The notes beneath the pieces are model-generated. The model did not search any database, was not told where the DNA came from, and saw only the letters and a program-made list of their open reading frames with translations. From the NCBI RefSeq assembly GCF_044324875.1, contig NZ_CP172185.1: a DNA stretch of 64,000 nt; one strand, 5' to 3'. Made by a program: the position numbers and the translations under genes. Shown piece by piece: positions 1-15,959 of the stretch (within the stretch, counting starts at the first letter, position 1; each line of letters starts with the position of its first letter). This DNA is from Escherichia coli. Lineage in GTDB: Bacteria > Pseudomonadota > Gammaproteobacteria > Enterobacterales > Enterobacteriaceae.

Positions 1-144
1 TGTTTTACGCGAAATAACATCAATAATCAGGCTCATAATGGCATTCCTGATAAATGGCGCATATCCTTAGCGAGTCCATTTATCTAAATAAGACAAAGGT
101 AATCACTTAACAACGAGGCATACCTGATATTAATAATGGCAGGA

Positions 145-1500
145 TTATTTCAAGTCGGGTAAGTCGTTGTATAAGCCCTGTTTAATTCCCGCTAATGGAA
201 TAAGGTTATTCACCGCAGCGGCATAATTTACGGCGGCGACCCAGCCATCATAATTGGCATTTATTTCAGCCGATTGCGCCTGAAAGACATCTTGCTCGAC
301 GGTTAATAGATCATTCAGACTGCGTTTGCCCAATTTATATTCATTTTGGTACACATCTCGCGTTTTGTGCGCACTTTCGGATTGTGCTAAACCGGCTTCT
401 TCGCGACCCCGTGCGCCTGTCCAGTTGGCATATGCCACAGACGCTCGTTGCAGCACATCCAGTTTTGCCTGTTCGACCTGCGAGGCAGAGATTTTTTGTT
501 GCCCTTCGGCCTGTTGCACCTGGGCAGAAACCGCGCCGCCCTGATACAGCGGCGCGTTAACGTTCAGTTGTAACTGATCATCCCAATACGAGCGGTCGCT
601 GGTCTGGTAGCGCGTTTTACCCCCCTGAATACTGAGCGTTGGCCAGTATTGCGCTTTCGTTTTTTCCACGCCGTACTGTGCTGACTGGCGTAAGTTTTCT
701 GCCGCCAGCACCAGCGGGATGGACTGGTAATCAATATTTTTCAGCGATACCGACTGCTCGGCTAATTCAGCAGGTGGCGCGGCTATCGCCTCCGGCTGTA
801 CGCCAGTGAGCACCGCCAGTTGCGCTTTGGCGCTTGCCATCTGCGCCTGATATTGCTCCAGCGTTGAGCGCATTCCGGCAATGCGCGTCTGGGCCTGTAA
901 TTCATCCGACGATGAGTTCAGGCCAGCGTTAGCGCGCAATGCCGCCATGTTGTAGACGTTTTCCAGCGAGTGAATATTGCGTTGAGCCGCATCGCACAAA
1001 GCCTGATAACGACTGACTTCCATATAGGCAGTCGCCGTTTTCTCTGCAACATCGGTTAAGGTTGCCATCAATTTAAAGCGGTAGCTGTCACGGGCGGCAG
1101 TTTGCAGATTGATATCGTTGTTAGTTTTACCAAAGTCATACACCAGCTGTGTCAGGGTTATGCCATACGAAACGTTGTTATCAAGCCTGCCGCTGGAGTC
1201 CGTTTGTCGGGACGGCCCCGCGTTGCCGGTTAATCCAACGTGCGGATACCAGGCACTTTTGGCTTCATCAATTTGCGCTTCGCCAATACCTATCTGCGCC
1301 GCCTGTTGAGTGACGTCGGGATTTCGCGCAAAGGCGCGTAATATACTTTCCTGTAAAGATAATTGGGCAACTGGCGTTACCGCTGGGGCATTCGCCCATT
1401 GTGGCAGCGGTGCAGCAATTGCAGCTTCTCCCATCACCATAAAACTTATAAAAAAAATAAGTCCATTATTTTTACGGTTTTTAAACTGGAATCGCGCCAT
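145..1500 (-). CDS. TolC-family outer membrane channel protein (efflux / type I secretion outer membrane component), 451 aa with N-terminal signal peptide
   Basis: Translation has a hydrophobic signal-like N-terminus followed by a long region with TolC/OMF-type composition (Q/A/L-rich helical repeats, Y/N/G-rich strands). Not a gene I recall at this position in K-12. Confidence 0.75.
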   Translation of the reverse strand: MARFQFKNRKNNGLIFFISFMVMGEAAIAAPLPQWANAPAVTPVAQLSLQESILRAFARNPDVTQQAAQIGIGEAQIDEAKSAWYPHVGLTGNAGPSRQTDSSGRLDNNVSYGITLTQLVYDFGKTNNDINLQTAARDSYRFKLMATLTDVAEKTATAYMEVSRYQALCDAAQRNIHSLENVYNMAALRANAGLNSSSDELQAQTRIAGMRSTLEQYQAQMASAKAQLAVLTGVQPEAIAAPPAELAEQSVSLKNIDYQSIPLVLAAENLRQSAQYGVEKTKAQYWPTLSIQGGKTRYQTSDRSYWDDQLQLNVNAPLYQGGAVSAQVQQAEGQQKISASQVEQAKLDVLQRASVAYANWTGARGREEAGLAQSESAHKTRDVYQNEYKLGKRSLNDLLTVEQDVFQAQSAEINANYDGWVAAVNYAAAVNNLIPLAGIKQGLYNDLPDLK

Positions 1501-1803
1501 AGATAAGTCACTTCCTTCCAGGTCATTATTTTAACTGGTTTTTATAACCAGTCTCATTTTATTAAGAAGGGTAATAACTTGTGCATCTCTTTTGTCGATC
1601 TTTGATATGGGCAAAGAAATGCAGCTAAAAAGCTTATACGTTATTTATTTAGAATACACTACGACTTTTAGATTACCATCATACACATTAAGAATAATCC
1701 ACGGTAATAAGTGATTAGCATCACAGATTTATCGCGTATATATCATTTTTTTGTGACTTATTTATTAAAGGAATAAGAAAGGTAATTTGAATTAAAGACA
1801 AAG

Positions 1804-1826
1804 GCGCAGTACAGGCTGTACTGCGC
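1804..1826 (-). terminator. Perfect 10-bp stem / 3-nt loop hairpin just downstream of ybaT stop, U-rich tract on minus strand
   Basis: gcgcagtaca-ggc-tgtactgcgc palindrome read directly; located 12 nt 3' of the ybaT stop. Confidence 0.5.
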
Positions 1827-1837
1827 GCAGAGAGGTG

Positions 1838-3130
1838 TTATACGGTTTTATTGCGCTTCATGACCATTGCCACAATAAGGCTGAGTAAGATTGCACCAAT
1901 AATCCATATCAACGCACGGCTGCCCTGGGACCACAGGCTGTAGATAAAGCCAACGATCACCAACAACATCACCAACGTACCAACGATAAGAATCGGCAAC
2001 GAGGCGTGAATATCATGACGCAGGCGGATCGCCACCACAAACACCGCCAGATAGCAGATCAAAAAGGTGGCGCTGGCAACGCTGGCGAGTGAGCCTAAAT
2101 TCAGCGCCGCCGTCATCAGCATAATCAGCACCACGACAATGATGTTGCCCCAGGTACTCTGCCGCCACAGGGATTTATTCATTAGCTTCGGCAGTTCGCG
2201 TTCGCTGCCCATGTTGTCCATGATGTTAAACACGGCGAACAGGTTCGCGTTGATGGCTGAAGCCGTCGCCAGTAAAGCGCCGATGACGACGATCACATAA
2301 CCCACATGCCCGAGCAGCGGAGAAGCAGCCTGCGCTACGGCGGTATCGGCATATTTTTCTAACTCTAATGCCGATACATCGCTAAGCAAAACCAGCGCCA
2401 GCGAGATATAAAGCAACGTGGTAACGCCAATCGCCACCAGAAACGCCCGTGGCATAATGACCTGCGGATCTTTCACTTTATCCGCCGCGTTCGCCATCAT
2501 GCCAAAGCCCGCATAGGCAAGGAAGGTTATCCCGATACAGGAGAAGAACGCACCGGAGCTGGGGGGCGCAGAGACGGAAATATGCGCCGGTTGCAGCGAC
2601 CAGACACCGGCAATAATCAGCAATAACAGAATCATCATTTTAATGCCGACGAGGATCACTTCCAGCCGCCCTACCGCATGGTTGCTTAAGGAGTTGAAAA
2701 GCGTCATCACCGCAATGATTCCCAACGCGTAGAGCAAAATAAGGTGCTCCTCCTGGCTGCCTTCATGCAAAAACTGCACGGCATAAGCGCCAAAAGCACG
2801 GGCGACCATGGCGATGCTCACCGCCAGCGTCAACAGGTACAGTAACGAGAGCGCCAGCGAAAAGACGCCGTTGCCTAATCCGCGACGAAAGAAGTCGATA
2901 ATACCGCCATTGCTGGGATAGCTCGCCCCCAGGCGCGCATAGGCATAACCGGAAAACATCGCCACAATACCGCCAAAAGCAAAGGCGACCCAGGTCGAGG
3001 CTTCCATTAGCAACGCAGCCTGCCCCAGCAGCGCGAAGATCCCCGCCCCCACCATTGCCCCAATACCGATGGAAACGACGTTCCATAGACCGAGGGGTTT
3101 GTTATCGTTATTACCTTCCGTGTTCATCAT
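1838..3130 (-). CDS. ybaT: APC-family amino acid permease YbaT
   Basis: 430-aa polytopic membrane protein, synteny next to glsA as in E. coli. Confidence 0.9.
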   Translation of the reverse strand: MMNTEGNNDNKPLGLWNVVSIGIGAMVGAGIFALLGQAALLMEASTWVAFAFGGIVAMFSGYAYARLGASYPSNGGIIDFFRRGLGNGVFSLALSLLYLLTLAVSIAMVARAFGAYAVQFLHEGSQEEHLILLYALGIIAVMTLFNSLSNHAVGRLEVILVGIKMMILLLLIIAGVWSLQPAHISVSAPPSSGAFFSCIGITFLAYAGFGMMANAADKVKDPQVIMPRAFLVAIGVTTLLYISLALVLLSDVSALELEKYADTAVAQAASPLLGHVGYVIVVIGALLATASAINANLFAVFNIMDNMGSERELPKLMNKSLWRQSTWGNIIVVVLIMLMTAALNLGSLASVASATFLICYLAVFVVAIRLRHDIHASLPILIVGTLVMLLVIVGFIYSLWSQGSRALIWIIGAILLSLIVAMVMKRNKTV

Positions 3131-3132
3131 GA

Positions 3133-4065
3133 TCAGCCCTTAAACACGTTATAGCCGAGTTGCTTAGCGACCGATGCCACCATTTTTTGACCGCGAACAC
3201 TGTTGCCTTCTTCGTCCAGCGGTGGTGAGAACGCGGCAATTCCCATCACGCCAGGGACGACCGCCAGAATACCGCCACCTACACCGCTTTTGCCCGGTAA
3301 ACCAACGCGATACGCCCAGTCACCGGAGCGACCATACAGCCCTTCCATCATCATTTCAGCCAGAATGTACGGCACGTTGTCGGCCTGAAGAACGCGTTTA
3401 TGCGTCAGCGGATTCACACCACCCGCCGCCAGCGTCGCGCCAAGCGTTGCCAGTTCAACAGTATTGATGAGCGTGGAGCACTGACGGGTGTACACGTCAC
3501 AGGCTTCCATTGCATCACAATAGAGATATCCGGCGGAGTACAGCAGCCAGGCAATGGCCCGGTTATGGAAGTTGGTTGTTTGTTCCGACTGGTTTACTTC
3601 GTCAGAGAGCGCTACCTGCTCACCAGCCAGTTGTTGTTGGATATGTAAAATTCGCTGCCAGCGTTGTTCGGCATTTTCAGCGTTAATCAGGCTGGTGGTG
3701 GCAATAGCGCCAGCATTTACCAGTGGCGACAGCGGTTTGCCGCCATGCAACTCTAAGGCGATAACTGAGTTAAAGGGCAATCCGGTCGGGTCAGCGCCAA
3801 CTTTGTCCTGTACCGCCTGCGGGCCGACATCTTCTAACGCAAGGGCTAACGTACAGACTTTCGAGATGGATTCCAGCGCAAAGCGGTAATCACTCTCACC
3901 CGCGCGATAGATGTTGCCATCGCTGGTCACGATAGCCACTGCCGCCAGTTGACCAGGTACATTCGCCAGAAAGGGAATGTAGTCGGCATTTTGTCCGCCG
4001 TTAAGTGAGTGAAATTGGGTGTAAGCCTGATCCACTGCCTGCTGTAATTTGTTTGCATCTAACAT
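3133..4065 (-). CDS. glsA: Glutaminase 1
   Basis: 310-aa ORF; translation matches the glutaminase (YbaS/GlsA) family as recalled; synteny with ybaT. Confidence 0.92.
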   Translation of the reverse strand: MLDANKLQQAVDQAYTQFHSLNGGQNADYIPFLANVPGQLAAVAIVTSDGNIYRAGESDYRFALESISKVCTLALALEDVGPQAVQDKVGADPTGLPFNSVIALELHGGKPLSPLVNAGAIATTSLINAENAEQRWQRILHIQQQLAGEQVALSDEVNQSEQTTNFHNRAIAWLLYSAGYLYCDAMEACDVYTRQCSTLINTVELATLGATLAAGGVNPLTHKRVLQADNVPYILAEMMMEGLYGRSGDWAYRVGLPGKSGVGGGILAVVPGVMGIAAFSPPLDEEGNSVRGQKMVASVAKQLGYNVFKG

Positions 4066-4255
4066 CTTTTGTTAACTCCTTTTTATAGATGCGGGAGGTA
4101 ATTCCTCACCCCGGTGCCGATTTTCAGGCATCCTGATTTAACTTAGCACCCGCAACTTAACTACAGGAAAACAAAGAGATAAATGTCTAATCCTGATGCA
4201 AATCGAGCCGATTTTTTAATCTTTACGGACTTTTACCCGCCTGGTTTATTAATTT

Positions 4256-4275
4256 CTTGACCTTCCCCTTGCTGG
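4256..4275. repeat. attL core (direct repeat copy 1)
   Basis: 20/20 identity with 39269..39288; lies 70 bp downstream of the int stop. Confidence 0.8.
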
Positions 4276-4344
4276 GGACAAAGAACTGCGTGGTGTAAAA
4301 TAACACCACGCAATATCAATAAGTTACATAACCACTTTAACTCT

Positions 4345-5388
4345 CTACCTCCCTTTTTCCTCAAAATGTGGACACTCAATGGACATATCACATAGCGGAT
4401 TATGCATCACAGCATCGCTTAAATAATCCGGCGAAAAATGCGCATAAGTCATTGTCTGAGATATATCTGCATGACCGAGGATTTTTTGAAGAGAAATAAT
4501 ATTCCCCCCATTCATCATAAAATGGGTGGCAAATGTATGCCTCAATACATGAACCGCTTGACCGTCCGGCAAATTAGGCTTAGCCACCTTCAGTTTCAGC
4601 CTAAACCATTTATAACTCACCCGAAATAAACGCCCCTCCTTGCGATGTTTTACAAGCCTAACAACATCATCAGAAACAGGAACAACCCGACGCTTATTAT
4701 TTTTTGTGAAATTAAATACAACCTTATTACCGATAATATGTTCCCCCATTAGCTGATATGCTTCATTCCAGCGACAGCCTGTAGACAACAAAAGGACAGC
4801 CATTCGGTAATAATCTCCCGAACCCTTGCAGATAGAAAGAAACGCACCAATCTCTTCATGATTAAGATAAGCCATCTCTGGGGTTTTTTCCTTGAGGCGA
4901 GGAAGCGACAATACAGGGTTACTACCGTGATATTCACCAATCTCTGCCATAGCCTTTAACGCAGCGCTAAACGCAAAAAGATCATGGTTGATTGTAGATG
5001 CCTTAACCCCTTGATCGAGACGGCGCGATCTATATTCAGCAACCATGCGTTCATCAATCTCGTACATCATAGGGTCACCCATATCAAGACAAATACACTG
5101 GAGGTTATTCAGTCTACGATTCGCGTAATCCTTGTGACGACCTATCAGTAACCACCACGTCGCAATGAAATCGCTTAAATATCGCTTGTCCAGAAGATTA
5201 CCGAAAACATCAACAGAAGGGCGATCAGCAAGAACTTCGCGTTCAAATGCTACAGCCAGATTTTTTTTCTCAAACTTCCGACGAATGCGCCTTCCCTTAC
5301 TTCCGTCGGGTCGAATGTCCACAAAATAGCGACCATCTTCGAGCTTCTTAATTGACATAAGAAGACCCTCCAACAGTCCATTCTCCAT
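4345..5388 (-). CDS. int: Tyrosine integrase, P2 Int family
   Basis: 347 aa; N-terminus MSIKKLEDGRYFVDIRPDG...RRIRRKFEKK and C-terminal HxLRHTFATHF...GHADISQTMTYAHF catalytic region resemble P2 Int as recalled. Confidence 0.92.
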   Translation of the reverse strand: MENGLLEGLLMSIKKLEDGRYFVDIRPDGSKGRRIRRKFEKKNLAVAFEREVLADRPSVDVFGNLLDKRYLSDFIATWWLLIGRHKDYANRRLNNLQCICLDMGDPMMYEIDERMVAEYRSRRLDQGVKASTINHDLFAFSAALKAMAEIGEYHGSNPVLSLPRLKEKTPEMAYLNHEEIGAFLSICKGSGDYYRMAVLLLSTGCRWNEAYQLMGEHIIGNKVVFNFTKNNKRRVVPVSDDVVRLVKHRKEGRLFRVSYKWFRLKLKVAKPNLPDGQAVHVLRHTFATHFMMNGGNIISLQKILGHADISQTMTYAHFSPDYLSDAVMHNPLCDMSIECPHFEEKGR

Positions 5389-5427
5389 CTTGAAAACAGA
5401 TAGAGAAAACGTATTCCTTATAAAGAG

Positions 5428-5727
5428 TTAACCAGTCTGTTTCCCTGATTGGGGTGACGTTGTTTCGACGTGCCCACAGTGTGCGAGAGCCGGGGCTATT
5501 TGCCCGTGTTCTGGGTCGATGCGGTCATACATAAACCAATTCTGATACTTATGAAAACGGGGGTGACCAAATATCTTAATTGCAGATTCCAATGTCATCT
5601 TAGATTTGTCACGCTCATAGCCGTGATAGGTTGTGTAATTAAGCCCTACTAAATCAACAAATTGCTGTTTTGTTAGCCTTTCCGAATCTCGCATGATCGC
5701 TAACTTTTCACCTTGAGTATTTGACAT
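5428..5727 (-). CDS. C: Immunity repressor, P2 C family
   Basis: 99 aa, same length as P2 C; C-terminal QIAPALAH...ETTSP...G motif resembles P2 C as recalled; divergent from the cox-like gene. Confidence 0.85.
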   Translation of the reverse strand: MSNTQGEKLAIMRDSERLTKQQFVDLVGLNYTTYHGYERDKSKMTLESAIKIFGHPRFHKYQNWFMYDRIDPEHGQIAPALAHCGHVETTSPQSGKQTG

Positions 5728-5768
5728 ATTTACGAGTACTCCATATAGTTACGCAAAAACAACATTCC

Positions 5769-5810
5769 TAGCCTAAAACGGCAAAACACCGTCAAAGGCC
5801 GATTAGGCTA
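5769..5810. promoter_or_regulatory. Nested inverted repeat (tagcctaa ... ttaggcta) in the C / cox-like divergent promoter region; candidate repressor operator
   Basis: 8-bp perfect inverted arms at 5769..5776 and 5803..5810 with inner partial symmetry; sits in the lysogeny/lysis switch intergenic region. Confidence 0.4.
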
Positions 5811-5851
5811 AGCAAGCCTCAATCAATGGCAACCTTGGAGTGTATCAAAAA

Positions 5852-6340
5852 ATGGCAAAACAACGAGATTTTGAACAAATCACGACACATCAGCATTGCC
5901 GTCTCTATCCATTAGACGGCTACATCACGATGAACGTGTGCAAAATGAGTTCAACGCAGGCTGGACGCATACGTGATATGAGTCTGAGCGACTTACAACA
6001 ACAGGAGTTTGTTAGCCCAGAGGAGTTTGCATACATCACGGGGCGCACCTACAAAGCAGCCAAAAACATCATGGACCGAAACGAAAGCCTGCTTATTAAG
6101 GAATACGCCACGCCAGACGCAACACGACCTAAGCGATTTATCAGACTCCAGCACTACTGGGCCGCAATTATCAACAACAAAGCATCGCTGACACCACGCG
6201 AGCATCTATTTATCAATGAGATTCGAAACAACAAAACGCTTTACCGCGAGATGATGAAAATCAATCTCAAGATTCGCGAAGGGCGAGAAGTCTCGAAAAA
6301 AAAACCAAGATACTCCCATCAATCGCAATCAGCGGCATAA
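5852..6340 (+). CDS. Cox-like excisionase/regulator domain protein (162 aa from ATG at 5852; the ORF track opens at GTG 5840)
   Basis: Position equivalent to P2 cox; central region (EFAYITGRTYKAAKNIM...LQHYW) loosely resembles the Cox winged-helix; GGAG Shine-Dalgarno 11 nt upstream of ATG 5852. Confidence 0.5.
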   Translation: MAKQRDFEQITTHQHCRLYPLDGYITMNVCKMSSTQAGRIRDMSLSDLQQQEFVSPEEFAYITGRTYKAAKNIMDRNESLLIKEYATPDATRPKRFIRLQHYWAAIINNKASLTPREHLFINEIRNNKTLYREMMKINLKIREGREVSKKKPRYSHQSQSAA

Positions 6341-6500
6341 CACCAAAAGGAGTTTTCCCATGTGCGACCTGAGCAAAGCAGAGCTAATTGCAATCATATT
6401 GTTTGCCATAGATTTTGGTTTTCTTTTGAGCGGCGCAATTCTCCTTCCTGCAATTAACAGGAAAAATTAATCACCACTGCAAATAACAAGAGCCAACAAC

Positions 6501-6716
6501 ATGACCCCAAGACAAGTATTAATCTCCAAAAATGATGACATATTGCACTTTCAAGTAAAATACATAATAGCCACAACAAAGGTAGGAACATCAATCTATA
6601 TACACTATCAGAATTTCTATCTGGAGAGAGTCTTCGAAACGGAAGGAGAAGCCCAGAAGTTTTTGATACACATAAAAGATTGCATAGAAGGAAAAATAAG
6701 ACCAGGGGATCAATAA
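6501..6716 (+). CDS. Hypothetical early-region protein (71 aa)
   Basis: ORF in early operon orientation, abutting the next ORF; no recognisable motif. Confidence 0.4.
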   Translation: MTPRQVLISKNDDILHFQVKYIIATTKVGTSIYIHYQNFYLERVFETEGEAQKFLIHIKDCIEGKIRPGDQ

Positions 6717-7024
6717 TGCGAAAACATTATTCACAACCATATATCCGTAACAGTGCGCCACGCAGCAATAACCGCTGGAGCCTGCGCGAAACACACGCAA
6801 CACCAGGCGGTCACGTTGTAAAACAAACTGGGGAACACACCCGGCTGATTGAGCAGGCTGGACTCGTGATCCACAGATGCAACCGCAATCCGTTTACCGG
6901 AAACCGCATCTTTGCACTGAGCAGCGGCGACAACCAGTTCGGGCAGGATTTCACGCTACACGAAGCCCTGCGAACTGCCGACCGCTTAATCGCGGGGCGC
7001 AGCTTTCAGCACCCGGATTACTAA
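6716..7024 (+). CDS. Hypothetical early-region protein (102 aa from internal ATG)
   Basis: ORF 6680..7024 with likely start at ATG 6716 directly following the upstream stop. Confidence 0.4.
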   Translation: MRKHYSQPYIRNSAPRSNNRWSLRETHATPGGHVVKQTGEHTRLIEQAGLVIHRCNRNPFTGNRIFALSSGDNQFGQDFTLHEALRTADRLIAGRSFQHPDY

Positions 7025-7067
7025 AGAAAAGTCGGCTTAATAAGCCCTGAGCCAGTCTTAATAAGAC

Positions 7068-7325
7068 ATGAGAGGCGATAAGATGAAAAGAGCCTACAAA
7101 GAAATCGCTAACGACATACTTCAGAATTATCACCTAACCCTTGCGAGCAACGGTGTCGCCTATGATGAGCAATCGTTCCGCGCAATGCAGGGTGGGATTC
7201 TTGGGCTGTATATCGCCGCCACAGCCAGCGGCGACCTCGAAGCGCTGGCAGAATTAAAGGTTATCTATCCGAAAGAACTTGGCGAAGACCTGATTAAACC
7301 CTATCTCATTGAGGAGCTAGCATGA
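7068..7325 (+). CDS. Hypothetical early-region protein (85 aa)
   Basis: ORF in early operon orientation; its stop overlaps an unlisted 40-codon membrane-peptide ORF at 7322..7444. Confidence 0.4.
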   Translation: MRGDKMKRAYKEIANDILQNYHLTLASNGVAYDEQSFRAMQGGILGLYIAATASGDLEALAELKVIYPKELGEDLIKPYLIEELA

Positions 7326-7527
7326 ATATTCTTATCTCGTGGTTAATTCTCATCCTCGCCATTATTTGCGCGGTGGGAATCATGCGAATTATTAACGGCA
7401 TTAAAACCATCGAATCATTATTTACTGGCGACAAGCGCCATAAATAAATAACCGGAAATTACCAGAAAGCAAGAAAACATCCGCAACGGCGGAGGGATTC
7501 CCTTACGCCTGAAATAAGGAGCAGCGA

Positions 7528-7743
7528 ATGAGTAAACCACTAACCAGCATTGAGCGAAAAATTGTTTTTATGAATGTGGCAGGCGTGCAGTTCGAAGTGG
7601 ATAAGCAGGTCATCGTCTCCGAAACGAGATGCCCGGCAGCAGGTGAGCAATGCACCTACCTGACACTGGCAGACGGCACGCAAATAACCGCCGTCACCGA
7701 CACCATTCGCGAGCTTGTGATTATCAGAGGGGTTAAACGATGA
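7528..7743 (+). CDS. Hypothetical early-region protein (71 aa)
   Basis: ORF with AGGAG-type ribosome binding site; stop overlaps the next start (ATGA). Confidence 0.45.
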   Translation: MSKPLTSIERKIVFMNVAGVQFEVDKQVIVSETRCPAAGEQCTYLTLADGTQITAVTDTIRELVIIRGVKR

Positions 7744-7952
7744 CCAGCAAATACACCACCAACGCACGCAAGCCAGGCAAGGAGGCACGTCATCACATTG
7801 CCGTTCTGCGCAATCTCATCATGTGCGAAATCGACGACTTTGTGGCGGGACTGGGCCAGCCGGGCGAGCCAGCAACACCGGGCGAAATACACAAAGAACT
7901 ACGCCGCCGCATAGAAAGCGCGGTGGATTACGTCATGAACCCGAACGACTGA
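7740..7952 (+). CDS. Hypothetical early-region protein (70 aa)
   Basis: Translationally coupled to the preceding ORF. Confidence 0.45.
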   Translation: MTSKYTTNARKPGKEARHHIAVLRNLIMCEIDDFVAGLGQPGEPATPGEIHKELRRRIESAVDYVMNPND

Positions 7953-7992
7953 CCAGAACGCGAGCGCGCGCCGGATGACGCACGCATAACGC

Positions 7993-8478
7993 TTAGCGGG
8001 AAGCGCCAACCGTAAGGCTGGCAATGATTTTTTCGGAGAGTGAGAGAGATTCGCGATGATTAAGACCAAGAGCAGCACAAGCTTTATTGCGCGCCGGGTT
8101 GTCCATGCATTCAAGCACCGGAGAGTCCTGCTTCTCAATTTCCACCAGTCGCGCCAGCAACACCTCCGTGCTGAGACCGTCGCTTTCAGTAATCAGGACG
8201 TTATAGCGATGAGCCTGTTCTTTTGCAGCCTGAGCGCGTCGCCCAAATTTCCAGGCGATATTGCAGCCACTAAGCACAGCCACGATACCACCCAGCAACC
8301 AACTGAAATTGCTGCCTGCAAACACAGTAGCCCCAGACGTAAGGATGACAGCATTAATCACCGTATCCATACGGCGGTTAAACACCTCCGAAATATGTTC
8401 AATCCAGTAACTGTTCCAGAGACGAAACATGACCTCGTGTCGCCGTTCGGCATGATTTTCAGTTGGTTGTCTGTTCAT
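7993..8478 (-). CDS. Two-transmembrane-helix small membrane protein (161 aa), oriented against the early operon
   Basis: Two adjacent hydrophobic helices (VINAVILTSGATVFAG; FSWLLGGIVAVLSGCNIAW) followed by a charged helical tail; opposite strand to every neighbouring early gene; 243-bp upstream region of its own. Confidence 0.6.
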   Translation of the reverse strand: MNRQPTENHAERRHEVMFRLWNSYWIEHISEVFNRRMDTVINAVILTSGATVFAGSNFSWLLGGIVAVLSGCNIAWKFGRRAQAAKEQAHRYNVLITESDGLSTEVLLARLVEIEKQDSPVLECMDNPARNKACAALGLNHRESLSLSEKIIASLTVGASR

Positions 8479-8721
8479 TGCGGTTTAACCCTCCTCATCA
8501 TCTCGCCCCTGCCCTTTTTCAGGCGCGGGAGCCGGTTGCCGTGGCACATGAAATTTATCGCTATCAGACATTTATTTTTTCCCGTGTGTTGTTGAACAAA
8601 GTGCCCGCACAGTTTTGACGGAACGGCGGGCGCTTCAAGCGTAACACACCCTTCTTTTCCGGTTGAAGGCGAAAAAAACCGGACAGCTACCCGACACAAA
8701 CCAGACCAGCGGAGAACTGCC

Positions 8722-9276
8722 ATGTACGCACTTAAACCTATGGGGATACCAGGCAAAGCCCCGGCGCATGTGAAAGCCTGGACACAGCAGGAAGATGATT
8801 TGCTGATCACCCTGTACCCGCAGCACACAGCACGAGATATCGCCGGACGTCTGGGGCGCAGCTACGAAGGAGTTTGCGGCCGCATTTCTCGTCTGCGTGA
8901 ACAGGGCAGGATTGGCATCAAGCAGCAAAGACTAAGCGATGAGATGATCGCCACGCTCATCAGGAACCGCCACACCAGGTCCCTCAAGGAACTGGCACAC
9001 ATGGCGAAAGTTTCGACACGCACGGTAACCAACCGATTGAGGGCGCTGGGCTACAGCCTGATCAAATGCGGGGATCTGCATAAAAACACCGTCTACAGCG
9101 ACCGCATCGTTGAGATTATCAGACAGTTACACGACGAGGAGGGCCTGACGTTCAGGGAAATCGCACAGCGCCTTAGCCACGAACTACAGCCGAACCCTAC
9201 CCCGACACTGGCTCAACGTCTCTACTGGCGGTGCACAGCATCCGACGCCGTATTCCGTGAACTGTTACCAGATTGA
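8722..9276 (+). CDS. Putative DNA-binding protein with three tandem helix-turn-helix-like repeats (184 aa)
   Basis: Three ~40-aa segments each with a similar pattern (e.g. ...ARDIAGRLGRSYEGVCGRISRL / ...LKELAHMAKVSTRTVTNRLRALG / ...FREIAQRLSHE). Confidence 0.5.
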   Translation: MYALKPMGIPGKAPAHVKAWTQQEDDLLITLYPQHTARDIAGRLGRSYEGVCGRISRLREQGRIGIKQQRLSDEMIATLIRNRHTRSLKELAHMAKVSTRTVTNRLRALGYSLIKCGDLHKNTVYSDRIVEIIRQLHDEEGLTFREIAQRLSHELQPNPTPTLAQRLYWRCTASDAVFRELLPD

Positions 9277-9394
9277 GCAATCACCATGTACACACAAAAA
9301 AACCGCTTGCAACAACAAACCGGAACAGGGTACGCTTCCCCCGCACCTCATAAAGCGGGTGCCGGGTTTCGCAGCCTGCTGACTAGCAAAGCGC

Positions 9395-9417
9395 ACAACC
9401 GCGCCAGCGGTTTTTTT
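9395..9417 (+). terminator. Intrinsic terminator-like hairpin plus T7 within the 320-bp non-coding stretch after the 8722..9276 gene
   Basis: aaccgc-gcca-gcggtt followed by ttttttt. Confidence 0.45.
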
Positions 9418-9596
9418 GTGCGTACTGTATTGCCACGTCTTTTTCGCACACGAATTATGGCGGGGCGTACGGGGCCGACTTCGGTCGGGCCGGGTTCTTT
9501 GCTAGCCGGTACTGCGAACCTCGTACGTCTCGCCACCCACAGTTTCGCAGCTCTGGATGGTGAGTTTTTAAAACTTACTAGCAAAGAGGCCACACC

Positions 9597-9815
9597 ATGG
9601 CAAACCGCAAACAGCGCCGCGCTACTGCGGAGCATCACCACGTCCGCGCCCAAATCGACAAACGCCTTTTCCGCGCATCACGCGTTGCACGCATCATGCA
9701 CATCAACATGCTGCATGAACGCAGAGGGGCACTACCGAACACCTATATCGCCTCCGTTTTCAGCTATCTGGCGGACGATCTCGCCGAGCTGCAACGCCTC
9801 ATTAACCAGCACTGA
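9597..9815 (+). CDS. Hypothetical protein (72 aa)
   Basis: ORF preceded by an AAGAGG Shine-Dalgarno at 9584..9589. Confidence 0.45.
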   Translation: MANRKQRRATAEHHHVRAQIDKRLFRASRVARIMHINMLHERRGALPNTYIASVFSYLADDLAELQRLINQH

Positions 9816-9887
9816 TAAACATCCCGAAGCCATCCTGCGCCCGTTCGCGGGAGGCTTCCACACATCTGTAGTCGGGAGGATTGCGCC

Positions 9888-10256
9888 ATGATTCTGGCTG
9901 ACGATTTTCTGGAGTACCTGAACAACACCGAGCGCGACCTGTACGCGCGCGTTCTCACCCGTTACGAGAAATACAAACTTTCACTGCCAGAGCATCAACT
10001 CCGCGAAGGCGATATCGACATTGAAGGGCGCTACATCGTCAGGCGCCGCATAGCGGGCTACGGCATCTGGCGTGTCACCGGACGTGAGCATTCATTGCTG
10101 ACCATCTGCCAGAGTCCGTCCGGCGTGATAACGGAGATCGTCGCCGATAGTCTGCGACTCACCCATCACAGCGCCACCCCGGAAGAAACGCTGGCAGAAA
10201 CCCAGCGTCTGTGTCGCGTCATTGCCAACGCCGCCCTCCGCGCAGACAGGAGGTAA
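9888..10256 (+). CDS. Hypothetical protein (122 aa) immediately upstream of gene A
   Basis: ORF in early operon orientation, ends 4 nt before the A start. Confidence 0.5.
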   Translation: MILADDFLEYLNNTERDLYARVLTRYEKYKLSLPEHQLREGDIDIEGRYIVRRRIAGYGIWRVTGREHSLLTICQSPSGVITEIVADSLRLTHHSATPEETLAETQRLCRVIANAALRADRR

Positions 10257-10259
10257 GCG

Positions 10260-12749
10260 ATGGAGTTCGTCAGAGACTGGCAAAAACCGCGCCCCGCTAT
10301 CGGGCGCGAAGGCTTACCCGTACCTGAAACCGCACTGGATACCATCCTGAAGTGTTACCGCGCAGACGAAGAGCGCGCACTGCACGCTGAAGAGCAGGGT
10401 CATCCGCTTGCGGGCACAACCATCGGTAACGCGATCGACAAGTGGGAAGGCGCACAGGAGCGCCAGGAAGAGGCCATCACGCTCACACAGGAAGCGAGAA
10501 GACACCCGCCCACCCTTATTGAGGAAACCCTCAAAGAGCTGGACACCCTGCCCAAGTGGTTGAGGCTGCCGCTGATTAAGCACCTGAACTTTTTAAGGCG
10601 CAAACAGGAGGACGAACAGCAGAAAGGCAAGCGCGGCAAGGACACCCGCAAATATGAGCGCTTCCTGAAAAACGGCATCCCCGCACGTCTTCGCCGTATT
10701 CGTGAGATTAACGCTCGCTTTGCACCGTTAAGTTTTCAGGCCGCTGCCATGCGCGAGAGTCTGGAAGAACTGATCACACTGCCGAACCTGAGCCGTGAAC
10801 GCATCCAGAAAATAGCCGTACTGCTTGCCAGCGCCGTTAAAATGCATCTTGCCGACGCAATGGACAAGGCCCGCGAAATAACAGGGAACGACAAAGACGA
10901 CAACCTGAACAACTGGCTGATTGCCTACCAGTATATTGGTCGCCGTGTCCTGAAGCTGGGGATCACCCCACCATACTGGAGCGCCCTTGAACTCCGCCCC
11001 GACCGCAGAAGCCCCCCGGACGTGACACTGGTTCCGGGCGCTGTTTTGCGCCTGAACGACGCCGAATGGTGGAATAAAAAACTTCGCCAGATGCACGACG
11101 TCTGGCGTGAGGAACTTTTACGTGCAGCGGGCCTTGTATCCCGCCAGACCTCCGTTTATGTGAGCCGTGAAGCGCTGGCAGACTTCCGCGAAAAACAGGC
11201 CCGTACCCGCGATTTTCTCAAAGCGCACGACGTGGAGAACGAAGACGGCGAACGCATCAGTCTGGAAGATATCTACTACGCCAGTACATCCAACCCGCAT
11301 AACCGCCGCAACGAGATGATGGCGTGCGTTAAGGGAATGGAGCTTATCGCACAGGAACGCGGCGACGTGGCCTTCTTCGTCACGGTCACAGCCCCGTCTC
11401 GTTTTCACAGCGTCACCGACGCAGGCACGCTGAACCCGAAATACAAAGGCGCAACCGTAAAGGACGCCAGCGACTATCTGGTTTATAACTTCTTCGCCTC
11501 CGCCCGCAAACTCATCAAAAAAGAGAAGCGGGGCTGGTACGGCATTCGCACCGTGGAGCCTCACCACGACGGCACGCCCCACTGGCACATGCTGGTATTC
11601 ACAAGCCCTGAGAACGAAGAGCGCATCACGGAAATCATGTGCAATGCCGCCATTCGCGAAGACCGGGCAGAGCTGGGCGACGACATCACCCCGCGCTTCA
11701 AGTGCGAGAAGATAGATCCCGAAAAAGGCACGCCAACCAGCTACATCGCCACCTACATAGGCAAAGGCATTGACGCCGCTGCATTCGGCGACACGGATCC
11801 AAAAACAGGTAAACCGCCCGTTGACCACGAAAGCGGAAAACCTATGGCGGACACCGTGGAAAACGCCGTCGCCTGGGCGCGCCTGCATCGCATTCGCCAG
11901 TTCCAGTTCTTTGGCCTCCCTTCCCGTCAGGTGTGGCGTGAGTTCCGCCGCCTTGCCGGACAAATGGCACGCAACCCGAAGGGGCCGCAGGCACTGACCA
12001 ACCCCAAAGCCGACGCCCTCCTTGTTGCAGCCGATACGGGGTGTTTTGCCAGCTACATCATGCATCAGGGCGGTGTGCTCATTCCCCGTAGTGAATATCT
12101 GGCCCGCACAGCCTACGTCACCGCAGAAGAGCCGAACAATTACAGCGAATTCCCCGAGCGCATTTACGGTATCCGCATGCCGGAACTGGGGGAGGACTTC
12201 ACGTTATGCACCCACCCGGAAGAGTGGAAAATCGTCAGAAAGGAACCGGAACCAGACAACCGCACGGGCGAGGGTTTTGACCTTCAGGGCGGCCCCGCCG
12301 CCCCTTGGACTCGTGGCAATAACTGTCACCCTGACGAAAAAACAACCAACAACAGCACACAAACCGGACAGTCAGAGTGGGCAAAACTGCCCCCCTTACC
12401 CCCATCGTCGGACGGTTTTGTGAGCTGGTTTAAGTCGCTTAAGAGGCCGGACAGGAAAAAACTACAAAGATTGCTCAAAAAACGCACCGAAGAGAGTCGC
12501 CAGAACGCCAGCGGCGGCACCGACACACCCACCGACACCATTAACCTGGGCGTTGTGCTGCCGGAACTGCCGGAAATCGTGCAAGTCCGCCGCGATCTGG
12601 AAGCGCTGGGCGCGGACTTCCCCGAAGCAATGGCCCATTCCGTCTTTATGGGTGCCCGCGTTCGTCTGGGTAACGGTCGCACCGTTCACCGCGACGAGCA
12701 GACCGGGCGCATCACCGTCACCAGTCTGCAACCGGAGGCGAAACCATGA
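10260..12749 (+). CDS. A: Replication initiation protein, P2 gene A family (rolling-circle endonuclease)
   Basis: 829 aa; contains an HUH-type metal-binding motif (HDGTPHWHMLVF) and a downstream tyrosine motif (SYIATYIGKG), as in rolling-circle initiators; position as for P2 A. Confidence 0.85.
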   Translation: MEFVRDWQKPRPAIGREGLPVPETALDTILKCYRADEERALHAEEQGHPLAGTTIGNAIDKWEGAQERQEEAITLTQEARRHPPTLIEETLKELDTLPKWLRLPLIKHLNFLRRKQEDEQQKGKRGKDTRKYERFLKNGIPARLRRIREINARFAPLSFQAAAMRESLEELITLPNLSRERIQKIAVLLASAVKMHLADAMDKAREITGNDKDDNLNNWLIAYQYIGRRVLKLGITPPYWSALELRPDRRSPPDVTLVPGAVLRLNDAEWWNKKLRQMHDVWREELLRAAGLVSRQTSVYVSREALADFREKQARTRDFLKAHDVENEDGERISLEDIYYASTSNPHNRRNEMMACVKGMELIAQERGDVAFFVTVTAPSRFHSVTDAGTLNPKYKGATVKDASDYLVYNFFASARKLIKKEKRGWYGIRTVEPHHDGTPHWHMLVFTSPENEERITEIMCNAAIREDRAELGDDITPRFKCEKIDPEKGTPTSYIATYIGKGIDAAAFGDTDPKTGKPPVDHESGKPMADTVENAVAWARLHRIRQFQFFGLPSRQVWREFRRLAGQMARNPKGPQALTNPKADALLVAADTGCFASYIMHQGGVLIPRSEYLARTAYVTAEEPNNYSEFPERIYGIRMPELGEDFTLCTHPEEWKIVRKEPEPDNRTGEGFDLQGGPAAPWTRGNNCHPDEKTTNNSTQTGQSEWAKLPPLPPSSDGFVSWFKSLKRPDRKKLQRLLKKRTEESRQNASGGTDTPTDTINLGVVLPELPEIVQVRRDLEALGADFPEAMAHSVFMGARVRLGNGRTVHRDEQTGRITVTSLQPEAKP

Positions 12750-13156
12750 ACCGTTATCATTGTGTACTGCCGCGCCACTACTTCGGTCAGATTATGCGCT
12801 CGCGTATTCCGGCGGTCACGCTGCGAAACCTGAGCACGGTACCGCAGCCGGGCGATGAGCTGGAAATCGCCGTAGCAGGCCCTGACCGTTCAGCCAGCTG
12901 CGTGACCGCCGACGTGCTGAACGCCGTGCCCGTAGGTGGTGACTGGCTGGTTGCCATCCGCTTCCGCCAAGACCCGTTCGCACCTGAACCGCTCACCCCC
13001 GCAGGCCGCATCATGCAGAACTGGCGGGATGAAGGCGCGAAGGCGAACTGCGAAAAACTGATTAACAGGATTGCCACGACAAACCGACATGCCGCGCTGG
13101 CGCGCCGGATATACCCCGCAAAACCGACACAACCAACAGGAGTAAAACGCCCATGA
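12746..13156 (+). CDS. Hypothetical protein (136 aa), start overlaps the gene A stop
   Basis: ATGA overlap with A; unknown function. Confidence 0.5.
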   Translation: MNRYHCVLPRHYFGQIMRSRIPAVTLRNLSTVPQPGDELEIAVAGPDRSASCVTADVLNAVPVGGDWLVAIRFRQDPFAPEPLTPAGRIMQNWRDEGAKANCEKLINRIATTNRHAALARRIYPAKPTQPTGVKRP

Positions 13157-13292
13157 AAAGAATCGCCGGAACCCACAGAGACACAAAAAGACACCAAAAG
13201 CAGCAAAGACACATTGAATAAACGAAAACTGGTGATATGATTTGTTCAAAGATGTTATGATTTATTCATAAGTAACCTTTCAGGCTTAAGTT

Positions 13293-13667
13293 ATGAATAA
13301 ACAGGATTTTGGACTTGATACCCTTTTGAGTATGCATGGTTACCAGCATCACATGGATAACGGGTACTGGTGGAAAATTGAGGCTTACCGGGTAAGTCCA
13401 AGTCCGTTCAGACCTCACGGGATACGCTACAATCTGACGTTACATGACCGCTACAATTCGCGTGTGTTTGGTATGGACAACGCACATGGAATAAAACCGC
13501 CAAAGAAGGGAAGATTTACAGGAAAGTTAACTGTTTATGATCATGTGCACCGTACCCCGGTGGATAAAGGTTATCCCTATGAGTTTGTATCCGCAGAACA
13601 ATTGTTATCTGATTTCTTTGATAACGTTGATCGGCTCATTAACGAAGTTACAAAGGGGAAAGCATGA
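13293..13667 (+). CDS. Hypothetical small protein (124 aa), first gene of an overlapping two-gene module in the A-to-Q cargo region
   Basis: ORF with own upstream promoter-like region (direct repeats atgatttgtt / atgatttatt); stop overlaps the next start (ATGA). H/Y/W-rich; no motif I can assign with confidence. Confidence 0.6.
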   Translation: MNKQDFGLDTLLSMHGYQHHMDNGYWWKIEAYRVSPSPFRPHGIRYNLTLHDRYNSRVFGMDNAHGIKPPKKGRFTGKLTVYDHVHRTPVDKGYPYEFVSAEQLLSDFFDNVDRLINEVTKGKA

Positions 13668-14050
13668 AAGCCCGCATCGGGATCATCCCGGAAAAAGTCC
13701 TGCGTCAGCGCCTGATTGAAATTGCCAAGGGGGAGCGGAAACCACACCCCGACGAGCCAAGGGTATGGTTTTCATCCATCAATGCGGCGGGTCAGGCGCT
13801 GAGCAATGAAAATATCTCCCTTCTTCGTCTTATGGATGAGGAGAAACCGCAGACCATGACCGAACTTGCGGAGTTATCCGGCAGAAAACTGAGTAACCTG
13901 TCTGTAACCCTGAAAATGCTGAGCAGCTACGGTTTTGTCAGTCTGGAAAAGAAAGGAAATACCGTACACCCGAAGGCACTTTTTACCGATTTTGAAATCA
14001 TCGTTGATCCGTCCGTCGGTTCAGTACATCGCGCCACCGCCCGCCCCTGA
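13664..14050 (+). CDS. Putative winged-helix DNA-binding protein (128 aa), second gene of the two-gene module
   Basis: Central MarR/winged-helix-like segment (MTELAELSGRKLSNLSVTLKMLSSYGFVSLEKKG); translationally coupled to 13293..13667. Confidence 0.6.
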   Translation: MKARIGIIPEKVLRQRLIEIAKGERKPHPDEPRVWFSSINAAGQALSNENISLLRLMDEEKPQTMTELAELSGRKLSNLSVTLKMLSSYGFVSLEKKGNTVHPKALFTDFEIIVDPSVGSVHRATARP

Positions 14051-14063
14051 AGTGTGCAATAAA

Positions 14064-14090
14064 CAGCCCCGGTCGGGGCTGTTTTTTATT
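14064..14090. terminator. Bidirectional intrinsic terminator between the converging 13664..14050 and 14086..14460 genes
   Basis: cagcccc-ggtc-ggggctg hairpin followed by ttttttatt. Confidence 0.6.
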
Positions 14091-14460
14091 CCAGAATCAG
14101 CTGTTCAGGTGTGCAGCCGTACAGTCTGGCAAGGCGCTCAATATTTGCCCTGCGCGGGCGTTCTGTTCTTTCGAATTCGGACACGGTAGCCTGCCTGATA
14201 CCCAGCGCATCCGCCACCTGCTTTTGCGTCATTCCGCGATAGATTCGCCACGCCGCCTGCATGGTGCAGCCACGTTCCGAGAGGATGTTGACCACCTCGT
14301 TGGGATACAGCGTATCAGGCGATGCACTCGGTTCGTTCTGGACGTCCTCGTAGAGTTCGTCAAGGTCGCTGTCTCCTGCCAGTTTTTCAAACAACGCCAC
14401 TGGCAGAATGACGGATACCCTGTTACCCGCACCGTCAGTAATAAACTGAATCTGACTCAT
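14086..14460 (-). CDS. XRE-family helix-turn-helix protein (124 aa), candidate antitoxin
   Basis: C-terminal HTH_XRE-like segment (MTQKQVADALGIRQATVSEFERTERPRRANIERLARLYG); downstream of and co-oriented with a RelE/ParE-like ORF. Confidence 0.6.
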   Translation of the reverse strand: MSQIQFITDGAGNRVSVILPVALFEKLAGDSDLDELYEDVQNEPSASPDTLYPNEVVNILSERGCTMQAAWRIYRGMTQKQVADALGIRQATVSEFERTERPRRANIERLARLYGCTPEQLILE

Positions 14461-14533
14461 TTGCCCCTCCTGCTAAACATCGGTTTATTTTTTAATTTGC
14501 TGCCGGTGATAAAAAACGGCGGGTCGCCCCGCC

Positions 14534-14806: not shown

Positions 14807-14851
14807 ACCGGAAGCAAATTATTAAAGAGCCGTGCCCGCTGGCACACCTTA

Positions 14852-15893: not shown

Positions 15894-15908
15894 GCAGAGC
15901 TGGAGAGT

Positions 15909-15933: not shown

Positions 15934-15959
15934 GCGAAGCAGCAGACAAGCGAAGCGCG

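What the first reader, a model, noticed from the sequence alone, without database searches (positions are those of the whole stretch)
1..1837. TolC-family outer membrane gene next to ybaT where K-12 has cueR
Indicates the window edge enters a strain-specific accessory island, probably a type I secretion or efflux locus (from memory, O157-type strains carry an RTX-like island at this position). The AT-rich 340-bp upstream region (1501..1837) is typical of horizontally acquired, silenced promoters.
Basis: partly seen in the sequence, partly recalled or inferred. Interest (0 to 1): 0.4.

Follow-up and report, generated by a model that had tools for sequence, protein, structure and literature searches.

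The report
Known E. coli adhesin-secretion island edge (OI-28)
The left edge of the window holds the outer-membrane channel gene (tolC28/Z0608) and promoter of O-island 28, a published type I secretion system that exports a giant adhesin in E. coli O157:H7 and about a sixth of other E. coli, so the finding is real but ordinary.

Summary
Window 145..1500 (-) is an intact 451-aa TolC-family type I secretion outer-membrane protein. It sits next to ybaT (1838..3130, -), separated by a 337-bp spacer of 32.9% G+C. In K-12, cueR follows ybaT instead.

This is the first gene of O-island 28. The gene order is tolC28/Z0608, a roughly 20-kb BapA-related adhesin siiEA (Z0609/Z0615), the ABC exporter hlyB28, then the adaptor hlyD28, ending at cueR. 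The protein matches the O157:H7 ortholog at 449 of 451 residues. The published RstA box TAATTCAAATTACC is present exactly at 1781..1794. A 2025 paper shows the island is RstA- and Ca2+-activated and needed for adherence. Older arrays show strong RpoS and stationary-phase induction.

The island occurs in 958 of 5426 complete E. coli genomes.

- K-12's ybaT-cueR spacer is a frameshifted remnant of the hlyD28 3' end.
- 4458 genomes have ybaT and cueR adjacent as in K-12; the junction read in a B2 strain is the same.
- E. ruysiae has the island at the same site, with divergence like the flanking genes.

So K-12 carries a deletion. The system is already known and of low interest.

The parts
1..36 (-). 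First 12 codons (MSLIIDVISRKT) of the giant BapA-related adhesin gene siiEA (rtxA28/Z0609 in O157). The gene runs off the left edge of the window.
   Evidence: RefSeq annotation of the syntenic matches and the sequence read.
37..144 (.). 108-bp spacer between the tolC28 stop and the siiEA start, 37% G+C.
   Evidence: One sigma-70-like match lies at 173..144 (-); its function was not tested.
145..1500 (-). tolC28 (Z0608/ECs0540 ortholog). An intact 451-aa TolC-family outer-membrane channel of the OI-28 type I secretion system. It has a Sec signal peptide (…AIA/AP) and no lipobox cysteine.
   Evidence: TIGR01844 scores 414 bits against a cut-off of 225. Pfam OEP matches twice. 449 of 451 aa are identical to the O157:H7 protein. 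The only Cys is at residue 169. Distant matches to solved TolC/OprM structures.
1501..1837 (-). 337-bp AT-rich (32.9% G+C) regulatory region of tolC28 and the OI-28 operon.
   Evidence: for composition. The same 320-bp region was used as the RstA-dependent lacZ fusion and as the EMSA and ChIP target in O157 (PMC12758282). Long blocks are invariant out to E. ruysiae.
1781..1794 (-). RstA box TAATTCAAATTACC, at -294..-281 from the tolC28 ATG.
   Evidence: Exact and unique match in the window, with 0.02 expected by chance. The box and its requirement for RstA binding are published for O157. It is not conserved in E. ruysiae.
1711..1725 (-). CRP-like palindrome TGTGA-N6-TCAC. This is a weak lead only.
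   Evidence: It is the only match in the window, but 0.41 are expected by chance. The half-sites are conserved in all five aligned sequences, including E. ruysiae. No experimental support.
1534..1552 (.). Conserved inverted repeat ACTGGTTTTTATAACCAGT, 34-52 nt upstream of the tolC28 ATG. Possibly an operator or a 5'-UTR hairpin.
   Evidence: The 94 nt before the ATG differ from E. ruysiae by one substitution and one indel.
1804..1826 (-). ybaT terminator-like hairpin GCGCAGTACAG-CC-TGTACTGCGC followed by a T-rich tail. The K-12 deletion breakpoint lies inside it (about 1806-1810). Sequence left of it is island-specific and sequence right of it is shared with K-12.
   Evidence: for the terminator scan. 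Searches show K-12 homology starting at window 1810. The stem is kept in E. ruysiae through G-U pairs.
1838..3130 (-). ybaT (APC-family permease), the core gene flanking the island.
   Evidence: It is 98.3% identical in nucleotides to K-12.

Best explanation
Window 145..1500 (-) is tolC28 (Z0608/ECs0540). It is the dedicated TolC-type outer-membrane channel and the first gene of the O-island 28 operon.

Inferred mechanism, from the family: the protein is exported by Sec and forms a trimeric channel-tunnel in the outer membrane. It docks with the inner-membrane LssB-type ABC exporter (hlyB28) and the HlyD-type periplasmic adaptor (hlyD28). Together they export, in one step, the roughly 6700-residue Ig-repeat BapA-related adhesin SiiEA, which promotes epithelial adherence.

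The 337-bp AT-rich spacer at 1501..1837 is the operon's regulatory region. It carries the published RstA box at -294..-281. In O157:H7 it drives RstA- and Ca2+-activated, RpoS- and stationary-phase-dependent transcription.

The locus is an old Escherichia presence/absence polymorphism. K-12-type genomes lack it because of one roughly 25-kb deletion that runs from the ybaT terminator hairpin to codon ~360 of hlyD28. It is not a recent strain-specific acquisition.
For: Family assignment:
- TIGR01844 scores 414 bits against a cut-off of 225, and Pfam OEP matches twice.
- There is a signal peptide and no lipobox.

Orthology:
- 449 of 451 aa are identical to the O157:H7 protein.
- Nucleotide identity is 98.4-99.5% in 958 genomes, all annotated TolC family OMP plus siiEA.

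Operon partners in syntenic genomes:
- ABC exporter: TIGR03375 at 837 bits.
- Adaptor: TIGR01843 at 328 bits.

Regulation:
- Exact RstA box.
- RstA EMSA, ChIP and lacZ fusions, the Ca2+ effect, and adherence and colonisation defects of the tolC28 and other mutants (PMC12758282).
- 55-fold RpoS dependence.
- Stationary-phase induction of log2 3.5-4.1.

Deletion history:
- The K-12 spacer aligns to the hlyD28 3' end.
- Across a frameshift it translates to VAVDIRTGKK / VLEYLLKPFNKAQEALRER*.
- HlyD28 matches its family profile to the last position.
- PGAP annotates a pseudogene at that spot.
- 4458 genomes have ybaT and cueR adjacent as in K-12.
- The junctions of a group A and a group B2 strain differ at 1 of 134 nt.
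- E. ruysiae has the OMP and a 6713-aa adhesin at the same site. Its tolC28 is 90.7-94.4% identical, against 89.3% for ybaT and 89.7% for glsA.
Against: - Only 36 nt of the adhesin gene and none of the ABC or adaptor genes are in the window. Completeness of the system in this strain is therefore inferred from relatives.
- In every E. coli relative inspected, siiEA is annotated as a pseudogene. O157 has an internal stop, 2012C-4221 has frameshifts in both siiEA and tolC28, and E600003 has a frameshift plus a stop. Some of these could be assembly errors in repeats.
- All functional data come from O157:H7 and O145:H28, not from this strain.
- The transcription start site is only predicted.
- The body of the island is G+C-rich (siiEA 60.6%, hlyB28 57.1%). 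An ancient horizontal origin, before the E. coli/E. ruysiae split, is not excluded.
Confidence: 0.92

Rival explanations
1. The island is a recently, horizontally acquired, strain-specific element, and its AT-rich promoter is kept silent by H-NS-type xenogeneic silencing.
For: - The spacer is 32.9% G+C, against about 52-54% for its neighbours.
- The island body has atypical composition: siiEA is 60.6% G+C, and it was flagged for atypical oligonucleotide usage in PMC1274298.
- It is present in only 17.7% of complete E. coli genomes.
- Homologous OMP-adhesin systems occur in other Enterobacteriaceae at 58-80% identity.
Against: - There are no mobility genes, tRNA or IS at the ends.
- The K-12 spacer is a hlyD28 remnant, so absence is due to deletion.
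- The same site is occupied in E. ruysiae, with divergence like the flanking genes.
- Z0608 is well expressed in stationary phase (log2 signal 10.8, 55-fold RpoS-dependent).
- Matches to the H-NS high-affinity motif are at chance level (50 found, 44.6 expected).
- H-NS binding itself was never measured.
Confidence: 0.15
2. The gene encodes the outer-membrane factor of a drug or metal efflux pump (RND, MFS or MacAB type), not of a protein secretion system.
For: There are weak matches to NodT, AdeK, IhpA and OprM-type efflux factors.
Against: - The NodT model scores 94.8 bits, below its cut-off of 210. The type I secretion TolC model scores 414 bits.
- There is no lipobox cysteine.
- The neighbouring genes in all relatives are a giant adhesin, an LssB-type T1SS ABC exporter and a HlyD-type adaptor.
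- Mutant phenotypes are in adherence.
Confidence: 0.03
3. In this strain the locus is a decaying remnant. tolC28 is intact, but the adhesin gene is disrupted, so the system no longer exports a functional full-length adhesin.
For: siiEA is annotated frameshifted or interrupted in O157:H7 ATCC 35150, 2012C-4221 and E600003. In the closest relative, 2012C-4221, tolC28 itself is frameshifted.
Against: - tolC28 in the window is full length and differs from the O157 protein at 2 residues.
- The split O157 genes still give adherence and colonisation phenotypes (PMC12758282).
- E. ruysiae has an uninterrupted 6713-aa gene.
- Frameshifts in 20 kb of repeats are often assembly errors.
Confidence: 0.3

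Closest known systems
tolC28 (Z0608 / ECs0540) of O-island 28 (S-loop 42) in EHEC O157:H7 (PMC12758282; also PMC2907692, PMC2323221)
   Same: It is the same gene. 449 of 451 aa are identical, it occupies the same position next to ybaT, the upstream region is 98.8% identical, and the RstA box is exact.
   Different: There are two amino-acid substitutions (D62G, S250P). The strain is different: it carries a 35-kb prophage between glsA and copA that O157 lacks. The rest of the island is outside the window.
Salmonella SPI-4 SiiCDF/SiiE and BapA-BapBCD type I secretion adhesin systems
   Same: The architecture matches: a TolC-like OMP, a HlyD adaptor and an ABC exporter dedicated to a giant Ig-repeat, Ca2+-binding adhesin. 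RefSeq names the E. coli substrate 'BapA-related adhesin SiiEA'. A Salmonella enterica OMP at 69% identity sits next to a 5819-aa BapA_N/Big_13 protein.
   Different: The chromosomal site is different. In Salmonella it is not next to ybaT. Identity is only about 69%. From my own knowledge, not tested here: SPI-4 has a different gene order and extra genes, siiA and siiB.
E. coli housekeeping TolC (PDB 1EK9) and OprM (1WP1)
   Same: Same superfamily, with two OEP repeats. The alignment covers nearly the whole chain.
   Different: The relationship is very distant (phmmer E about 1e-11 to 1e-14). The TolC equivalog model NF007002 scores 66.7 bits against a cut-off of 495. TolC28 is genetically linked to one secretion system, whereas tolC is unlinked and shared by many.
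CyaE / LapE-type outer-membrane proteins of RTX-toxin and LapA-adhesin T1SS
   Same: These are dedicated OMPs encoded within the T1SS locus. Sakai annotated ECs0540 as 'CyaE-like', and homologues are named 'adhesin transport system outer membrane protein'.
   Different: No LapG/LapD-type retention or release genes are present in the E. coli island. Direct sequence comparison with CyaE or LapE was not done.

Membership tests
TolC-family type I secretion outer-membrane protein (TIGR01844) | Scores above the curated cut-off of the family model over its full length. | tested here: met
   414 bits against a cut-off of 225.15. Residues 46-445 match profile positions 2-412 of 414.
TolC-family type I secretion outer-membrane protein (TIGR01844) | Two tandem OEP (PF02321) repeats. 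| tested here: met
   Two matched stretches, E = 1.1e-47.
TolC-family type I secretion outer-membrane protein (TIGR01844) | Sec signal peptide without a lipobox cysteine. This separates it from NodT/OprM lipoproteins. | tested here: met
   The N-terminus is MARFQFKNRKNNGLIFFISFMVMGEAAIA/AP and the only Cys is at residue 169. This was read by eye; no signal-peptide predictor was run.
TolC-family type I secretion outer-membrane protein (TIGR01844) | Genetic linkage to an ABC exporter, a HlyD-type adaptor and a substrate with a C-terminal secretion signal. | tested here: inconclusive
   This is met in the syntenic genomes. In the window itself, only the first 36 nt of the substrate gene are visible.
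TolC-family type I secretion outer-membrane protein (TIGR01844) | Trimeric beta-barrel/alpha-tunnel structure. | not tested
   There is only distant sequence similarity to solved TolC/OprM chains. No model was built.
O-island 28 (tolC28-rtxA28/rtxB28-hlyB28-hlyD28) of EHEC O157:H7 | Located between ybaT and cueR. | tested here: inconclusive
   The ybaT side is met. The cueR side lies outside the window. All 958 matching genomes cover the query fully. In the three inspected, ybaT is adjacent, and in the two read further the island ends at cueR.
O-island 28 (tolC28-rtxA28/rtxB28-hlyB28-hlyD28) of EHEC O157:H7 | Orthologous sequence of the OMP gene. | tested here: met
   98.8% nucleotide identity and 99.6% amino-acid identity to O157:H7 ATCC 35150.
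O-island 28 (tolC28-rtxA28/rtxB28-hlyB28-hlyD28) of EHEC O157:H7 | RstA box TAATTCAAATTACC about 290 nt upstream of tolC28. | tested here: met
   Exact match at 1781..1794 (-), which is -294..-281.
O-island 28 (tolC28-rtxA28/rtxB28-hlyB28-hlyD28) of EHEC O157:H7 | Required for adhesin-dependent adherence and colonisation. | not testable with these tools
   Published for O157:H7 and O145:H28 only.
NodT/OprM-type efflux outer-membrane factor | Score above the TIGR01845 cut-off, plus an N-terminal lipobox. | tested here: not met
   94.8 bits against a cut-off of 210.05. No lipobox.
Mobile genomic island (recent horizontal acquisition) | Integrase or IS or tRNA at the boundary, flanking direct repeats, and an empty site in relatives that is an intact target. 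| tested here: not met
   There are no mobility genes or tRNA at either end. The 'empty' site in K-12 contains a frameshifted hlyD28 remnant. The same site is occupied in E. ruysiae.

The most novel reading that the evidence does not exclude
The 'O-island' is the ancestral Escherichia state, and about 82% of E. coli carry one ancient 25-kb deletion allele. The scar of that deletion, the frameshifted hlyD28 3' end, now forms the whole upstream region of cueR. In island-bearing strains the hlyD28 stop overlaps the cueR start (ATGA). cueR could therefore be co-transcribed and translationally coupled with the adhesin secretion operon. That would link expression of the copper regulator to RstA, RpoS and Ca2+ control in those strains only.
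Probability: 0.2. Interest if true: 0.4.

Novelty: already known. Interest (0 to 1): 0.12.

Why it matters
It matters little beyond annotation. The gene, its island, its regulator-binding site and its role in adherence were published for EHEC O157:H7 in December 2025, and the island has been catalogued since 2001-2007.

Three points are useful here:
- The window's strain carries an intact tolC28 with the RstA box.
- The island is an old presence/absence polymorphism created by a deletion, not a recent acquisition. This corrects a common reading of 'O-islands'.
- cueR abuts the operon. This is a small, testable regulatory question.

Tried and rejected
- **Rfam scan of 1..4400 at E<=1.** Only two sub-threshold chance matches, both outside the finding. 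There is no known RNA element in the spacer.
- **H-NS high-affinity motif scan (TCGATAAATT, up to 2 mismatches).** 50 matches against 44.6 expected, so it is uninformative.
- **Sigma-70 promoter and terminator scan of 1..2000.** Counts were not above shuffles (5 against 3.4, and 3 against 2.4). It was used only to locate the ybaT hairpin and candidate -10/-35 elements.
- **CRP-like palindrome.** A single hit with 0.41 expected. Kept only as a weak lead because it is conserved in E. ruysiae.
- **Literature search for 'SiiEA'.** Mostly OCR noise. Only PMC3256949 was relevant.
- **Look-up of the Trabulsiella homologue's genomic context.** It failed because the protein is not on record.
- **Not run, because the question did not justify the cost:** a scan of all bacterial genomes for the locus, a structure prediction, and a fold search.
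- **Efflux-pump reading.** Rejected on model scores, the absent lipobox and gene context.

Full report
**1. Observation**

The minus-strand ORF at 145..1500 encodes 451 aa. It scores 414 bits on NCBIfam TIGR01844 (type_I_sec_TolC), whose cut-off is 225. It stays far below the cut-offs of the NodT efflux model (94.8 against 210) and the housekeeping TolC equivalog (66.7 against 495). Pfam finds two OEP repeats.

The N-terminus MARFQFKNRKNNGLIFFISFMVMGEAAIA/AP looks like a Sec signal peptide. The only cysteine is at residue 169, so the protein is not a lipoprotein.

To its right lie ybaT (1838..3130, -) and glsA (3133..4065, -). The spacer 1501..1837 is 337 bp with 32.9% G+C. The TolC gene has 51.4% and ybaT has 53.8%. 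In K-12 MG1655, ybaT is followed after 124 bp by cueR.

The window also contains the first 12 codons of the next gene, with its ATG at position 36 on the minus strand.

**2. What it is**

Window 1..1837 matches 958 of 5426 complete E. coli genomes over its full length. All matches are chromosomal, one copy each, and most are 95-99% identical. They are annotated 'TolC family outer membrane protein | siiEA: BapA-related adhesin SiiEA'.

In O157:H7 ATCC 35150 and in the closest relative, 2012C-4221, the order is:
- ybaT
- the TolC-family OMP
- siiEA (20.2 and 21.7 kb)
- a type I secretion permease/ATPase
- a HlyD-family adaptor
- cueR

The ABC protein scores 837 bits on TIGR03375 (LssB type). The adaptor scores 328 bits on TIGR01843.

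This is O-island 28 of EDL933: Z0608, Z0609/Z0615, Z0634, Z0635. In Sakai it is S-loop 42, ECs0540-0544, where ECs0540 is called 'CyaE-like'. The window's protein is identical to the O157 protein at 449 of 451 residues.

**3. How it works**

A December 2025 paper (PMC12758282) names the genes tolC28, rtxA28, rtxB28, hlyB28 and hlyD28. It reports the following:
- Deleting the island, or any single gene, lowers Caco-2 adherence and mouse colonisation.
- RstA activates a tolC28-lacZ fusion.
- RstA binds the 320-bp upstream region in ChIP and EMSA.
- Binding needs the box TAATTCAAATTACC at -294..-280.
- Extracellular Ca2+ raises expression through RstA.

That box is present exactly and uniquely at window 1781..1794 (-), which is -294..-281 from the ATG at 1500.

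Earlier transcriptomes show Z0608 to be 55-fold higher in wild type than in an rpoS mutant (PMC2907692). They also show ECs0540/0541 induced by log2 3.5/4.1 on entry to stationary phase (PMC2241611).

What is shown:
- the family assignment
- orthology with the O157 gene
- the gene context in relatives
- the presence of the RstA box

What is inferred from family knowledge:
- TolC28 forms the trimeric outer-membrane exit duct.
- It docks with HlyD28 and HlyB28 to export the giant adhesin in one step.
- The same holds in this strain.

**4. The AT-rich spacer**

I aligned the spacer from the window, O157, 2012C-4221, the divergent E. coli E600003 and Escherichia ruysiae. Long blocks are invariant. 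The 94 nt before the ATG differ from E. ruysiae by one substitution and one indel, although coding DNA on both sides is only about 89-90% identical between the species. That fits a constrained promoter and 5' leader.

Conserved elements include:
- an inverted repeat at 1534..1552
- a CRP-like TGTGA-N6-TCAC at 1711..1725

The CRP-like site is not statistically significant on its own (1 found, 0.41 expected).

The RstA box is not conserved in E. ruysiae. An H-NS motif scan was at chance level. No paper found here reports H-NS data for this region. 'Silenced' is therefore untested, and the expression data argue against constitutive silence.

**5. Acquired or lost?**

Five lines of evidence point to loss in K-12.

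- **The K-12 spacer aligns to island sequence.** BLAST of the K-12 ybaT-cueR interval against O157 shows that 28 bp after ybaT match the island's ybaT side. The homology ends inside the ybaT terminator hairpin, at window about 1810. The remaining ~96 bp match the 3' end of the hlyD28 coding sequence.
- **The K-12 spacer still reads as protein.** Translated, it gives ...VAVDIRTGKK and, after a 1-nt frameshift, VLEYLLKPFNKAQEALRER*. The HlyD28 C-terminus is ...MVATVDIRTGKKSVLDYLLKPFNKAQEALRER*.
- **That tail is genuine coding sequence.** HlyD28 aligns to the family profile up to its last position. RefSeq even annotates a 98-bp frameshifted partial pseudogene at this spot in an island-less strain.
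- **The empty-site configuration is widespread.** 4458 of 5426 genomes have ybaT and cueR adjacent, with one match covering at least 80% of a 401-bp K-12 junction query. The junction itself was compared only between K-12 (group A) and APEC IMT5155 (group B2). Those two differ at 1 of 134 nt and share the frameshift.
- **A sister species has the island in place.** In E. ruysiae the OMP gene and an uninterrupted 6713-aa adhesin gene (BapA_N, Big_13, Big_6 and FG-GAP domains) sit at the same place after copA-glsA-ybaT. Its tolC28 is 90.7-94.4% identical to the window, against 89.3% for ybaT and 89.7% for glsA.

There is no integrase, IS or tRNA at either end of the island.

The best reading is one ancient deletion of about 25.2 kb, now found in about 82% of E. 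coli. O157 did not recently gain the island.

The island body is G+C-rich: siiEA 60.6%, hlyB28 57.1%, hlyD28 56.8%. Related OMP-adhesin systems exist in Trabulsiella, Cedecea, Enterobacter, Lelliottia and Salmonella at 58-80% identity. In Salmonella the system lies at another site. A much older horizontal origin is therefore possible.

**6. Caveats**

- The window shows only tolC28, its promoter and 36 nt of siiEA.
- In all E. coli relatives inspected, siiEA is annotated as interrupted. In 2012C-4221, tolC28 is also frameshifted.
- I cannot tell whether this strain's adhesin gene is intact.

**7. Comparison and novelty**

The gene is a member of the TolC-type T1SS OMP family and is the ortholog of the published tolC28. 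Its closest analogues are the Salmonella SiiE/BapA systems and the CyaE/LapE-type dedicated OMPs.

Nothing about the gene or its function is new. The deletion-scar reading of the K-12 cueR upstream region, and the ATGA overlap of hlyD28 and cueR, are small additions that I did not find discussed in the papers read.

**8. Verdict**

The system is already known and of low interest.

Noticed in passing
window 4276..39268: A 35.0-kb insertion lies between glsA and copA, relative to O157 and K-12. It has a tyrosine integrase at 4345..5388 (-). It shows only distant similarity (about 78% nt over one third) to P2-family/P88-like phages, so it is probably a prophage without a close sequenced relative.
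   Followed up: partly
window 4251..4275 and 39264..39288: A 25-nt direct repeat, AA(T/A)T(T/G)CTTGACCTTCCCCTTGCTGG, flanks the insertion with a spacing of 35013 nt (D12). From my own knowledge, TTGACCTTCCCCTTGCTGGAAGG is the copA promoter -35 element and CueR operator. The prophage attachment core therefore seems to overlap PcopA, 53 nt upstream of copA (39341).
   Followed up: no
window 37959..38860: Near the right end of the insertion there are tandem units of about 200 nt. Each carries a terminator-like hairpin, TTTTGCCCGCCGGAAAGCGGGCATTTTTTT, in four copies (D3-D5). Their nature is unknown.
   Followed up: no
L005 5870..5993 (K-12 ybaT-cueR spacer); L009 1701..1798: The K-12 'intergenic' region upstream of cueR is a frameshifted remnant of the last ~32 codons of the T1SS adaptor gene hlyD28. 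RefSeq annotates it as a partial pseudogene in APEC IMT5155.
   Followed up: yes
L003 19189..19192: In island-bearing strains the hlyD28 stop codon and the cueR start codon overlap (ATGA). This suggests that the copper regulator may be co-transcribed or translationally coupled with the adhesin secretion operon.
   Followed up: no
L006 10001..11185 (E. ruysiae): The E. ruysiae TolC28 ortholog is 394 aa. It lacks 57 residues in frame, corresponding to window ~658..814, between two AKAQ motifs. This would remove part of the second OEP repeat region. Whether the protein still works is unknown.
   Followed up: no
window 41838..42214: O157 has ybaQ (a higA-type antitoxin gene) between copA and ybaP. 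The window has about 376 bp with no match to that segment, like strain 2012C-4221, which has no ybaQ annotated. E. ruysiae has a higB-higA pair there.
   Followed up: no
L003 16329..18781; L009 2206..3401: Between cueR and ybbJ, O157, 2012C-4221 and APEC IMT5155 carry a small second accessory block that K-12 lacks. It holds a YadA-family autotransporter adhesin, a lipoprotein and a small ORF. It lies outside the window.
   Followed up: no
literature: PMC12758282 reports OI-28 as absent from EAEC (0/10) and ExPEC (0/55). PMC3256949 reports the siiEA locus in an EAEC isolate and in UMN026. Here it is present in 17.7% of complete E. coli genomes, from many sources.
   Followed up: partly
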